A stretch of DNA of 63,535 nt, the filler included, from Collodictyon triciliatum (Eukaryota), in NCBI GenBank assembly GCA_043381765.1. It is 22 parts of 22 records of this genome, joined end to end, with 100 filler letters (N's around TTAATTAATTAA, not from the genome) between each part and the next. Parts side by side here need not be neighbours in the genome. Positions count along the whole stretch, not along the records: positions 47,202 to 50,075 come from JBHJMP010008148.1; 21 more parts are not named here. One strand, given 5' to 3'. Shown piece by piece: positions 48,241 through 50,175 of the stretch. Position numbers and translations under genes: made by a program. The notes beneath the pieces are model-generated. The model was not told the origin of the DNA. It did not search any database and saw nothing but the letters and a program-made list of their open reading frames with translations. Each line of letters opens with the position of its first letter. Positions within the stretch are counted from its first letter, which is position 1.

Positions 48241-48352
48241 AGGGGTAAACCAATCTTTCGATTGGTAAACCTGGTGCGCTAGTATCCAACGTCAATCCAC
48301 TTTTTCAGAAAGACTGTGTAGTGGCGAGGGCTGCCAGAAAGACCCGACAGCC
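48241..48352 (-). ncRNA. Candidate Fanzor omegaRNA scaffold (copy A)
   Basis: Non-coding segment just 3' of the Fanzor stop, homologous to 63059-63173. Three hairpins, including ACCAATC-GAAA-GATTGGT. Confidence 0.6.
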
Positions 48353-48379
48353 TGTTTTTTTTTAGGGAGATGTGTATGT

Positions 48380-50060
48380 TTATTTTTGAAGGATTAAAAC
48401 AACTTTCTTGAGTATATTATTAGCGCTGTTAAAGTCCCTTGTCAAGAATATACTTTGTTTGCTTTCTGAGCGATTGCATTCTTTACACATGAGGCATATG
48501 TACAACTTTTTTGAATTTCCTTTCGGTTTCATATATTCCAGTTCTTTTTCGCAGTTGAAACACATCTTGGAGGTTTTAAAGTCATCTACGCTAACTGTTT
48601 CAAAACGTTTGGATAGTATTTTTCGTAATCCTCTTCCGATTGTTGCCATAAAATATTTTCATCTGACATTTCCTGCTCAAGTATCCATACACCAGTACAA
48701 CATCCTTGCCAAATGTCTTTTCGATTCGGTTCATAAACAATTCTTCACTTCTTTTTGTATTAACATACGGCCTCCATCCCATCTTTCGAAAAATTGCTGG
48801 TTCATAAAATCTGGAAAATTCTATCTGATATCTTTATTTCATAGATACACATTTTCGAAACTTTTCATAATCGGCCGTGCATGAATTATGTTTACTCAGT
48901 TCTGTCTCTAAATCGATGAAAGATACTCTTAATGTCTCAAACCGCCGATTCTCTTCAAAAGTCCTGAGACCAAAAGAAACAGCACTTTGTAAATCTGTTA
49001 CCGTGCATATCCCTGAAGCATTGTACTTTTCTTTTTTTTCTTGCAAAAGAATTTTGTGATTTTTAAGAGATTTGCTATCATGTTTTCTTTGGTGTTCCGT
49101 GTAACGTAATTTCTTGCCTGTCTCATCCACCATGTAAACAAAATTAAACTTGCCTGCGTCCACTCCAACATTTTTTGTCGCTAATAAAAATAACTGCTCT
49201 TCGGAAAGTTCATCTATAAGCATATTCTTGGGTTTTTCTTTTTAATTATGTTTGGATTTTGAATTTGAAATACCTTTATTTTCAAACAATAATGACACCG
49301 CCAAGCCGTCTGTTTGTATCATGTATTTAAAATTGTAGTCTCTTTGAAACCCCCTCTTCTTCATTTCAAAGAAGTTCATCCCATAGGGTCTCTTTGCATC
49401 TTGATATATTCTTCGGTAATGATGTTTTTCTAGATAATACTAATAGCTATCTATCAAACATGCAATATCTTAAGTATTATGACATGGCATATAGTTGGTT
49501 CTTATAGATATTGGTTGAAACTGTTTGGGTCCAATGTCCTCAAAAATGCGATTCATGTAAATCAAACATGAAATGTACTTGTTTGGACTGACTTTGGCGT
49601 TATATTCGATACCTTTTACAATATCGCTGGGAATGATGCGATTCAAATGCGCTATAGTCGATCCTTTATATTGTTCCGGTATTTCGAGATTCGTGAAGAT
49701 GGCTTTTTTTAACTCTTATAACTCTGTCTTTTTAATAATCGAATAAAGGAAAAAAAAAACTCTGTCTTTTTAATAGCTTCCGTCATATTCTCATCTTTAG
49801 GAACTGTTTGATTTATAAAGCGCAGTAGCCTCTTATCAAAATATTCCTTAATGTTATTATGATAAGCTGTTAACATTAGCTTCGCCAAGTACGGTAATAC
49901 ATGAGGCAGTCCAACCAATAGAAAGCGTTCTTCTCGGGACAAAAGGAATCGAAAATCATATAGATAGAAAGTCATCATGTCGTCTCTCATATCTGATTTT
50001 TTTTTTTAAAACTTGCGGGTCTACCTTGTGCAACTACTCCGACTGTCTTCAAAGCGTACA
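48380..50060 (-). pseudogene. Fanzor1 (TnpB-derived RNA-guided endonuclease), decayed copy A, 5' truncated by contig end
   Basis: Across stops and frameshifts: YLAKLMLTAYHNNIKEYF, QFQPISIRTNYMP, IQTDGLAVSLLF, RuvC-I VGVDAGK, TIGRGLRK, RuvC-II VDDFKTSK, Zn finger CFNC...CKEC and RuvC-III TRDFNSANNI. Confidence 0.9.
49738..49757 (+). mobile_element. Short retroposon 3' end with 18-bp TSD, inserted in Fanzor copy A
   Basis: ATCGAATAAAGG(A)8 between AACTCTGTCTTTTTAATA copies at 49720-49737 and 49758-49775. Confidence 0.85.
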
Positions 50061-50175
50061 AAAAAAAAAAAAAAANNNNNNNNNNNNNNNNNNNNNNNNN
50101 NNNNNNNNNNNNNNNNNNNTTAATTAATTAANNNNNNNNNNNNNNNNNNNNNNNNNNNNNNNNNNNNNNNNNNNN

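What the first reader, a model, noticed from the sequence alone, without database searches (positions are those of the whole stretch)
48241..50075. A multi-copy Fanzor1 family (eukaryotic RNA-guided endonuclease) in this genome
Seen: two homologous, independently decayed copies on unrelated contigs (48380-50060 minus, 62097-63051 plus). Their lesions are largely complementary, so the C-terminal half can be reconstructed. Known: TDG...vs, D-x-G, GDWS, TS-x-x-CxxC...CxxC and RD-x-N motifs define Fanzor1/TnpB-derived nucleases guided by an omegaRNA from the element's 3' end. Inference: two copies in 63 kb of unrelated small contigs imply a high-copy family, probably uncharacterised, with a possible intact master elsewhere. 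No transposase is visible because both copies are cut by contig ends.
Basis: partly seen in the sequence, partly recalled or inferred. Interest (0 to 1): 0.8.

Follow-up and report, generated by a model that had tools for sequence, protein, structure and literature searches.

The report
Two dead Fanzor1 transposon nuclease copies
Two small contigs of this eukaryotic assembly each carry a broken, truncated copy of the same Fanzor1 gene, a transposon-borne RNA-guided nuclease of a well-known kind, so this is an ordinary repeat-family relic and not a working system.

Summary
The window is 25 small contigs joined by N spacers. Contig 47202-50075 (minus) and contig 62074-63535 (plus) share about 1 kb at about 85% nucleotide identity.

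The read-through translation of copy A matches only Fanzor1 among solved structures, by sequence (3 of 3 hits) and by predicted fold (7 of 7 significant hits). It has 1097 relatives among 1.84 billion representative proteins.

Both copies are pseudogenes:
- Copy A has five in-frame stops, one frameshift, a retroposon-tail insertion and a degraded GDWS motif.
- Copy B has two frameshifts, a retroposon insertion and His in place of the RuvC-I Asp.
- Both carry Asp at the Fanzor catalytic Glu. Other family fragments keep Glu there.
- Both lack the 5' part of the gene.

dN/dS between the copies is 0.68, not distinguishable from neutral.

Nine further short, distinct fragments at 52-79% identity exist in public data. 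No long close relative was found, so "multi-copy" is supported but "high-copy" and "intact master" are not.

The best full-length relative (40% identity) belongs to 3.3-kb elements with terminal inverted repeats and a DDE_3 (mariner-like) transposase, on contigs whose gene content fits giant viruses.

This is a new member of a known kind, of low interest.

The parts
48241..49990 (-). Copy A: 5'-truncated Fanzor1 pseudogene covering relatives' residues ~103 to the C-terminus, plus the 3' tail
   Evidence: tblastn of P0004 (634 aa) covers its residues 103-588 on 49990..48413 in three frame pieces, E 4e-86. Three-frame reading.
49720..49774 (-). Secondary insertion in copy A: a 21-nt retroposon tail (49757-49737, antisense, T-run plus CCTTTATTCGATT) between 17-nt direct repeats (49774-49758 and 49736-49720)
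   Evidence: Removing 38 nt puts 49990..48657 into one frame. Family fragments P0108 and P0159 read straight across this point.
48657..49718 (-). Main frame of copy A (WED/REC/RuvC-I to the GDWS region) with five in-frame stops: TAA 49718-49716, TAA 49472-49470, TAG 49442-49440, TAA 49244-49242, TAA 48836-48834
   Evidence: Copy B reads TCA (Ser) where A has TAA at 48836-48834.
49158..49160 (-). RuvC-I catalytic Asp codon (GAC) of copy A, in VGVDAGK; equivalent to SpuFz1 D383
   Evidence: Alignments; nearly invariant column D185; coordinates.
48675..48686 (-). The GDWS motif is degraded to GYLS in copy A
   Evidence: Copy B, P0161, P0164 and P0004 have GDWS.
48650..48656 (-). 1-nt frameshift in copy A (an extra base relative to B in an A/T run)
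   Evidence: alignment. P0161 and P0164 read through this point in one frame.
48383..48649 (-). C-terminal frame of copy A: Asp at the alternative-Glu position (GAC 48583-48581), TS-x-x-CxxC...CxxC zinc finger, RuvC-III RD (Asp 48436-48434)
   Evidence: Pfam PF07282 E 3.5e-4, below its cut-off. 63% identity to P0164 over 100 residues. Coordinates.
48241..48382 (-). Stop codon (probably premature) plus the 3' tail shared with copy B; candidate omegaRNA scaffold and right end of the element
   Evidence: Homology with B ends at 48241. P0164 aligns about 12 residues past the stop. The RNA fold has z -3.92, with 0 of 200 shuffles as stable. There is no covariation, 0 of 19 pairs.
62097..63173 (+). 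Copy B: the C-terminal ~45% of the same gene plus the 3' tail; it starts right after a poly(A) run at the contig start (62074-62097)
   Evidence: tblastn of P0004 covers its residues 361-596 in three frames.
62123..62239 (+). Secondary insertion in copy B: 79-nt retroposon 3' end with an A-run (62142-62220) between 19-nt direct repeats (62123-62141 and 62221-62239)
62252..62254 (+). RuvC-I Asp replaced by His (CAC) in copy B
62394..62394 (+). 1-nt insertion (frameshift) in copy B relative to A
   Evidence: frames.
62790..62790 (+). 1-nt insertion (frameshift, A6 against A5) in copy B relative to A
   Evidence: frames.
62830..62832 (+). Asp (GAT) at the alternative catalytic Glu position in copy B (VNDFRTS)
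   Evidence: The column is E in at least 90% of 20 relatives.

Best explanation
These are two independently decayed, 5'-truncated relics of one Fanzor1 family. The ancestral element was a DNA transposon carrying a gene of about 600-640 codons for a TnpB-derived, omegaRNA-guided RuvC nuclease. Its guide-RNA scaffold would be transcribed from the 3' end of the gene and the adjacent right end of the element. That mechanism is inferred from the characterised Fanzor1 enzymes and is not shown here.

Neither copy can make an active nuclease. The two have drifted apart at close to the neutral rate and were later hit by insertions of a poly(A) retroposon, which places them in nuclear eukaryotic DNA for a long time. 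Their common ancestor already carried Asp at the catalytic Glu, whereas other members of the family keep Glu.

The partner transposase is unknown. By analogy with the nearest full-length relatives it may have been a DDE_3 (Tc1/mariner-like) gene lying upstream and divergent, beyond the contig ends.
For: Shown here:
- Two copies at about 85% nucleotide identity on separate contigs.
- Fanzor1 identity by sequence. P0002 against PDB gives PpFz1 1.6e-6, SpuFz1 9e-4, GtFz1 0.048, and nothing else at E<=10. There are 1097 relatives at E<=1e-3, 399 at <=1e-10 and 13 at <=1e-30. P0004, at 40% identity to A, matches SpuFz1 over residues 14-607 at 9e-37.
- Fanzor1 identity by fold. 7 of 7 Foldseek matches at E<=1e-3 are SpuFz, GtFz or PpFz. 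The next matches, Cas12f and TnpB, are at E>0.4.
- Lesions are listed under parts.
- dN/dS is 0.68 over 255 codons, with 23 synonymous and 67 non-synonymous differences on 150 and 615 sites. By my own chi-square this is about 2.1, p about 0.15 against neutrality.
- The frameshifts are real breaks, not introns. P0161 and P0164 read the same stretches in one frame.
- The Glu is kept in P0161, P0005, P0164 and P0004.
- The retroposon tail GAATCGAATAAAGG occurs at 5 exact sites in the window, some with flanking direct repeats.

Evidence from relatives:
- In L003, L004 and L022 the gene lies between 32-38-nt terminal inverted repeats. In L003, the only locus whose ends I read, these are flanked by TA. 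In L003 and L022 a divergent DDE_3+HTH transposase was scanned directly against Pfam; in L004 it is a tblastn match to the L003 transposase.
- 16 of the 81 loci searched hold such a transposase.
Against: - Two of the three frameshifts sit in short A/T runs and could be assembly errors.
- The Asp-for-Glu change is conservative, and its effect on catalysis is untested.
- dN/dS below 1 leaves room for some purifying selection before the copies died.
- The structural model is of low confidence (mean pLDDT 63, pTM 0.37).
- No left end, target-site duplication or transposase is visible for this family, so the transposon class is inferred only from 40%-identical relatives. The tree does not resolve how the window's clade relates to those relatives.
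- The omegaRNA has no direct support: 0 of 19 predicted pairs covary with two sequences, and no expression data could be obtained.
Confidence: 0.9

Rival explanations
1. The copies are fragments of an endogenised giant-virus genome, or were recently delivered by one, and are not a transposon family that amplified in the host.
For: - The best full-length relative, P0004, is 88% identical to a gene on a 254,533-bp IMG/VR contig.
- 301 of 435 pattern matches in IMG/VR encode relatives.
- Neighbours of the gene in L003 and L022 include ribonucleotide reductase small chain, a 2-cysteine adaptor domain, XPG/FEN1 and a glycosyltransferase.
- The window also holds a 782-aa intact ORF with DUF5906 on another contig.
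- Bao and Jurka 2013 proposed viral dissemination of Fanzors (abstract and sections 5-7 read).
Against: - The window's family is only 40% identical to the viral clade. In the tree it groups with P0003 and P0005 (SH-aLRT 94), and its link to either viral clade is unresolved.
- There are several mutually diverged copies: A against B is 15% at nucleotide level, and the public fragments are 52-79% identical at protein level.
- Retroposon insertions with direct repeats lie inside both copies, and the flanks are microsatellite-rich. These fit long residence and amplification in a nuclear genome.
- Ancient viral delivery of the founder is not excluded.
Confidence: 0.1
2. At least one of the two loci is a functional gene. 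On this view the apparent breaks are introns, an alternative genetic code or sequencing errors.
For: - All five in-frame stops of copy A are TAA or TAG, and the frame holds for about 1.3 kb.
- Two frameshifts lie in homopolymer runs.
Against: - Where A has TAA at 48836-48834, B has TCA. Where A has TAA at 49718-49716, P0108 and P0159 have Arg. The stops are therefore substitutions, not a reassigned codon.
- Other contigs hold long ORFs under the standard code.
- The frameshift sites are read in one frame by P0161 and P0164, so they are not introns.
- Copy B lacks the RuvC-I Asp, copy A lacks the D and W of GDWS, and both lack the catalytic Glu.
- Both carry retroposon insertions and lack the N-terminal part.
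Confidence: 0.02
3. The coding parts are dead, but the 3' tails are still transcribed. They would act as omegaRNA or as non-autonomous transposon ends, used in trans by an intact family member elsewhere.
For: - The tails fold much more stably than shuffles: z -3.92 and -4.01, with 0 of 200 shuffles each as stable.
- A 30-nt block of the tail is identical in A and B.
- Ghost elements that keep only the inverted repeats are described for Spu-1 (PMC10432273, passages read).
Against: - By my own estimate, at 85% identity over about 1 kb a 30-nt identical run is expected about once by chance.
- The hairpins differ between A and B by unpaired changes, with 0 of 19 compensatory pairs.
- Part of the tail is probably decayed coding sequence.
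- No intact family member was found.
Confidence: 0.05

Closest known systems
SpuFz1 / Spu-1 element of Spizellomyces punctatus (Fanzor1; PDB 8GKH)
   Same: - Same protein family. The best full-length relative, P0004, aligns with it over nearly the whole length (E 9e-37), and copy A matches it directly (E 9e-4).
- It gives the best Foldseek matches (E 3.9e-10 to 2.7e-8).
- Same order of motifs: TDG, D-x-G, GDWS, [ED]-x2-TS-x2-CxxC...CxxC, RD.
- It is also multi-copy in its genome, with partial copies (PMC10432273, passages read).
   Different: - Sequence identity is low (Foldseek 14-15% over the aligned columns).
- The window copies are pseudogenes.
- RuvC-I reads DAG, not DPN or DPG, and Asp stands at the position of E541.
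- There is an extra segment of about 34 residues after the helix that follows RuvC-I, shared with P0005.
- No inverted repeats or left end are visible here.
Mariner-type Fanzor1 elements of giant viruses (PGv-1 type of Bao and Jurka 2013; here L003, L004, L022 and IMG/VR loci)
   Same: - These hold the best full-length relative of the window's family: P0004, 40% identical to copy A, with a copy 88% identical to it in L003/L082.
- Same motif set, including GDWS and E-x6-CxxC.
   Different: - These relatives have uninterrupted single ORFs.
- In L003, L004 and L022, the three loci examined, the gene lies in elements of 3.3-3.9 kb with 32-38-nt TIRs. L003 has TA flanks, and a divergent DDE_3 transposase is present.
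- In L003 the tail from stop to element end is about 47 nt, against about 120-140 nt here.
- The tree does not join them to the window's clade with support.
- That they equal PGv-1 itself was not tested.
TnpB of IS200/IS605 and IS607 (for example ISDra2) and Fanzor2
   Same: Shared core: RuvC D...E...D with a zinc finger between RuvC-II and RuvC-III. There are weak Pfam matches to Cas12f1-like_TNB PF07282 (E 1.4e-4 and 3.5e-4, below the cut-off) and to OrfB_IS605 (E 0.04).
   Different: - No sequence match to any TnpB, Fanzor2 or Cas12 chain in the PDB at E<=10 or at E<=1 for P0004.
- Foldseek matches to TnpB and Cas12f have E>0.4.
- The acidic residue sits six residues before the zinc finger (the Fanzor arrangement), not about 50 residues upstream (PMC10711439, passages read).

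Membership tests
Fanzor1 | Significant sequence similarity to experimentally characterised Fanzor1 proteins, stronger than to Fanzor2, TnpB or Cas12 | tested here: met
   the only 3 PDB hits at E<=10 are PpFz1 (1.6e-6), SpuFz1 (9e-4) and GtFz1 (0.048). P0004 against SpuFz1 9e-37, PpFz1 7e-34, GtFz1 7e-16, with no other chain at E<=1.
Fanzor/TnpB | Motif D-X(125,275)-[TS]-[TS]-X-X-[C4 zinc finger]-X(5,50)-RD (Bao and Jurka 2013, section 6 read) | tested here: met
   Copy A, read across its stops and frameshift: D (49160-49158), about 194 residues, TS-KM-CFNC...CKEC, 12 residues, RD. The spacing is my own count. In copy B the first D is His, so B fails this motif.
Fanzor (1 and 2) | Alternative RuvC-II glutamate six residues upstream of the first CxxC (Ealt; PMC10711439 passages; E541 of SpuFz1, PMC10432273 passages) | tested here: not met
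   Both copies have Asp there: A VDDFKTSKMC with GAC 48583-48581, B VNDFRTSKMC with GAT 62830-62832. The column is Glu in at least 90% of 20 relatives and in the family fragments P0161, P0005 and P0164. The family therefore meets the feature, but these two copies do not.
Fanzor (1 and 2) | RuvC-I motif D-P-G, described as 'near exclusively DPG in Fanzors' (PMC10711439) | tested here: not met
   Copy A reads D-A-G and copy B reads H-A-S. Fragments P0096, P0160 and P0084 also read DAG, while P0003, P0051 and P0004 read DPG. This looks like a subfamily-level variant of the motif, not decay alone.
Fanzor1 | Fold of the WED/REC/RuvC core like the solved Fanzor1 structures | tested here: met
   Foldseek against PDB: 7 of 7 matches at E<=1e-3 are SpuFz, GtFz or PpFz, with TM (query) 0.35-0.49. 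Caveats: the model has mean pLDDT 63 and pTM 0.37, and it covers only residues up to the GDWS region.
Fanzor1 | omegaRNA encoded at the 3' end of the gene and the right end of the element | tested here: inconclusive
   A tail of about 120-140 nt is shared by A and B and folds with z about -4. But 0 of 19 pairs covary, there is no Rfam match in the window apart from one tRNA, and there are no expression data.
Fanzor1 | Location inside a eukaryotic transposon (ends, target-site duplication, or a partner transposase) | tested here: inconclusive
   Only the right boundary of homology is visible (48241 / 63173). The left side is cut off. No DDE_3 fragment is present in the window. Relatives at 40% identity lie in TIR-bounded DDE_3 elements.
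Fanzor1 (active nuclease) | Uninterrupted ORF with an intact D-E-D triad | tested here: not met
   Copy A has 5 stops, 1 frameshift and 1 insertion. Copy B has 2 frameshifts, 1 insertion and D to H. Both have E to D.

The most novel reading that the evidence does not exclude
The unsampled part of this genome may hold an intact master copy of a distinct Fanzor1 lineage. Its marks would be D-A-G in place of the near-universal D-P-G at RuvC-I, an extra segment of about 34 residues after RuvC-I, and a structured 3' tail. Its founder would have come from the pool of mariner-type Fanzor1 elements that is abundant in aquatic giant viruses. That would give a natural case of virus-to-host transfer followed by amplification, and a new enzyme to test.
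Probability: 0.12. Interest if true: 0.35.

Novelty: new member of a known kind. Interest (0 to 1): 0.18.

Why it matters
It matters little by itself. Multi-copy Fanzor1 families with many partial copies are already documented across eukaryotes (PMC3627910; PMC10432273; PMC10530073), and these two copies are dead.

Two modest points of value remain:
- The family shows a subfamily-wide DAG variant of the RuvC-I motif and a lineage-specific insertion.
- Its best full-length relative belongs to TIR-bounded DDE_3 plus Fanzor1 elements that are very common on giant-virus-like metagenome contigs. This bears on the old proposal that viruses spread Fanzors among eukaryotes.

For annotation, both loci should be masked as transposon relics.

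Tried and rejected
- Whole-genome search: no genome is held for this window.
- Sequencing runs: five runs hold only 5-9% of the sampled words, and no RNA holder is listed. There is therefore no depth, variant or expression evidence.
- First protein search, with the 160-aa ORF of copy B and longer candidates: no hit.
- Tiling the frame pieces of both copies into one alignment failed, because MAFFT misaligned the C-terminal pieces (alignment A1, not used).
- Pfam: only sub-threshold matches for the window's pieces and none for P0002.
- Metagenome scan with P0002 alone: 79 pattern matches, none a relative.
- IMG/VR scan with P0002 alone: one weak locus, L001, at 26% identity. It was not followed up.
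- The 20-row alignment A2 was too diverse to give search patterns, so the narrower A3 was used.
- Earlier notes of this scan: nothing for this genome or this sequence. One unrelated-genome note was found.
- An alternative genetic code with TAA/TAG read as sense was considered and rejected. See the second rival.
- Retro-copies (processed pseudogenes) were considered and rejected. No poly(A) follows the end of homology in either copy.
- The idea that the extra ~34 residues are an unspliced intron was considered and dropped. The stretch is in frame and translated in P0005, P0051 and P0084, and by my own reading no GT...AG pair restores the frame.
- Placement of the window's clade relative to the viral clades was unresolved in the tree.
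Full report
**What the window is.** The 63,535-base window is not one locus. It is 25 sequence blocks, mostly about 2.9 kb each. Most junctions are N44-TTAATTAATTAA-N44 spacers, with a few longer N runs. GC is about 37% and microsatellite-like repeats are frequent. The finding concerns contig 47202-50075 (copy A, gene on the minus strand) and the last contig, 62074-63535 (copy B, plus strand).

**The observation.**
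- blastn of contig A against the whole window gives one genuine partner. A 49191..48253 matches 62221..63161 at 85.5% over 944 columns, and A 49217..49174 matches 62097..62140 at 95.5% over 44 columns. All other hits are low-complexity.
- A local alignment runs to A 48241 / B 63173, after which the two contigs are unrelated.
- tblastn with the best full-length relative finds these two places in the window and only chance-level hits elsewhere (E 5.3 and 9.0).

**What it is.**
- I read copy A through its stops as X. This gives P0002, 352 residues from 49712..48657.
- phmmer against every PDB chain returns exactly three sequences at E<=10, all Fanzor1: Parasitella parasitica (1.6e-6), Spizellomyces punctatus (9e-4) and Guillardia theta (0.048). 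The alignments run through the TDG strand, the RuvC-I D-x-G and the GDWS region.
- An exhaustive HMMER scan of 1.84 billion representative proteins gives 1097 relatives at E<=1e-3, 399 at <=1e-10 and 13 at <=1e-30.
- The best full-length relative is P0004: 634 aa, 40% identical, from metagenomes. It aligns with SpuFz1 over residues 14-607 (E 9e-37) and matches no Fanzor2, TnpB or Cas12 chain at E<=1.
- An AlphaFold2 model of P0002 built on a 20-row alignment is of low confidence (pLDDT 63, pTM 0.37). Even so, all 7 Foldseek matches at E<=1e-3 are Fanzor1 structures. Cas12f and TnpB follow only at E>0.4.
- Pfam alone would not have settled it. PF07282 scores E 1.4e-4 and 3.5e-4, and PF01385 scores E 0.04, all below their cut-offs.

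**State of copy A**.
- Once a 38-nt insertion is removed, 49990..48657 is one frame with five in-frame stops.
- The insertion is a 21-nt retroposon tail plus one copy of a 17-nt direct repeat (49774-49720).
- A 1-nt frameshift follows at about 48655.
- The last frame, 48649-48383, carries the zinc finger and the RuvC-III RD.
- GDWS has become GYLS.

**State of copy B**.
- It begins directly after a poly(A) run at the contig start.
- It carries a 79-nt retroposon 3' end between 19-nt direct repeats (62123-62239).
- It has two 1-nt frameshifts, at about 62394 and about 62790.
- His (CAC) stands in place of the RuvC-I Asp.
- A 1-nt deletion has removed the stop codon that copy A uses.

**The breaks are genuine.**
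- Public fragments of the same family read the affected stretches in one frame. P0108 and P0159 read across A's insertion. P0161 and P0164 read across both frameshift regions.
- Where A has TAA at 48836-48834, B has TCA.
- Copy A lacks about 100 N-terminal residues. P0004 residue 103 aligns at 49990, and P0163 shows the missing N-terminus.
- A's stop at 48380 is probably premature, because P0164 aligns about 12 residues beyond it.

**A shared lesion.**
- The Fanzor hallmark glutamate lies six residues before the zinc finger. It is E541 of SpuFz1 (PMC10432273 passages) and 'Ealt' in PMC10711439 (passages).
- It is Asp in both copies: GAC in A and GAT in B.
- It is Glu in at least 90% of the 20 relatives, and Glu in P0161, P0005, P0164 and P0004.
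- The most parsimonious reading is that the common ancestor of A and B already had Asp. This is an inference.
- RuvC-I reads D-A-G in A and in fragments P0096, P0160 and P0084, where Fanzors are described as almost always D-P-G. That looks like a subfamily trait.

**Selection.** Over 255 aligned codons dN/dS is 0.68, with 67 non-synonymous and 23 synonymous differences. My chi-square against neutrality is about 2.1. This fits mostly neutral drift.

**Copy number.**
- Besides A and B, the protein collections hold nine distinct short fragments at 52-79% identity: P0158, P0159, P0085, P0096, P0108, P0160, P0161, P0162 and P0069. They are 50-143 aa long and sit on contigs of 500-740 bp.
- Up to six different sequences, counting A and B, overlap the same stretch ('TDLQSAVSFG...').
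- One fragment, P0160, is itself frameshifted.
- I cannot tell which genomes these fragments come from.
- No protein of 193-616 aa is closer than 57% identity.
- Multi-copy is therefore supported. High copy number and an intact master are not.

**The 3' tail.**
- A and B share about 120-140 nt beyond the stop.
- Both tails fold far better than shuffles: z -3.92 and -4.01, with 0 of 200 shuffles as stable.
- With two sequences no pair covaries (0 of 19).
- Part of the tail is probably decayed coding sequence.
- By my estimate, the 30-nt identical block is what chance allows at 85% identity.
- An omegaRNA scaffold here is plausible by analogy, not shown.

**Relatives and likely element type.**
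- The same scan found 301 relatives among 435 matches in IMG/VR (80 kept).
- By my count of the listing, 33 of those 80 record names contain 'GVMAG'. I recall this to denote giant-virus metagenome-assembled genomes.
- In L003, a 254-kb contig whose copy is 88% identical to P0004, and in L022 (255 kb), the neighbours include ribonucleotide reductase small chain, XPG/FEN1, a glycosyltransferase and a 2-cysteine adaptor domain. Directly upstream and divergent lies a protein of about 340 aa with DDE_3 and HTH domains.
- 32-38-nt inverted repeats bracket the two genes in L003, L004 and L022. TA lies on both sides in L003.
- 16 of the 81 loci searched have such a transposase. The window has none.
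- This matches the 'Fanzor1 in Tc/mariner elements' class described for Phaeocystis globosa virus and others (PMC3627910 section 7).
- In a quick maximum-likelihood tree of 46 rows, copy A groups with P0003 and P0005 (SH-aLRT 94). Its position relative to the two viral clades is unresolved. I picked the rows: 12 viral loci and 33 of the best 150 hits.

**Verdict.** The loci are Fanzor1 relics of a multi-copy family. They are not functional, the family type is well known, and nothing here points to a new mechanism.

Noticed in passing
62142-62220 (+), 49737-49757 (-), and exact tail motif starts at 54254 (+), 61478 (+), 62199 (+), 37571 (-), 27536 (-): A poly(A) retroposon with the 3' end ...TTTGAATCGAATAAAGG(A)n has left many very short, 5'-truncated insertions flanked by 15-19-nt direct repeats. 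Two of them lie inside the Fanzor copies. The parent element is not in the window.
   Followed up: partly
12052-14400 (-): An uninterrupted 782-aa ORF fills most of a 2.9-kb contig and matches Pfam DUF5906 (E 2.8e-12). From its sequence it looks to me like a viral or mobile-element primase-helicase, but I did not test that.
   Followed up: partly
831-1880 (-): A 349-aa ORF with a SET domain (E 1.8e-9) followed by a long, Ser/Asp-rich, low-complexity tail.
   Followed up: no
30736-31380 (-), 24869-25387 (-): Open reading frames with leucine-rich repeats, as expected for host genes of a eukaryote.
   Followed up: no
19690-19762 (+): A tRNA gene (63.6 bits) is the only Rfam match at gathering threshold in the whole window.
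   Followed up: no
L003 4637-7952; L004 4629-7953; L022 4006-7902: These are complete two-gene elements of 3.3-3.9 kb (a divergent DDE_3 transposase plus Fanzor1) with 32-38-nt terminal inverted repeats. TA flanks were seen in L003, the only one whose ends I read. The L003 and L022 contigs are 254-255 kb with giant-virus-like gene content; the L004 contig is 10 kb. In L003 the right repeat starts 16 nt after the Fanzor stop.
   Followed up: partly
P0006: One source names this Fanzor1 relative '6-pyruvoyl-tetrahydropterin synthase'. Its sequence shows this to be a mis-annotation.
   Followed up: no
50003-50075 (contig A end) and 62074-62097 (contig B start): Both contigs break in homopolymer runs: T16 at the end of A, and A24 at the start of B. 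An A11 run with 52 nt of unrelated sequence lies just upstream of copy A's first codon. The 5' truncations may therefore be assembly breaks at further poly(A) insertions and not true element ends.
   Followed up: no
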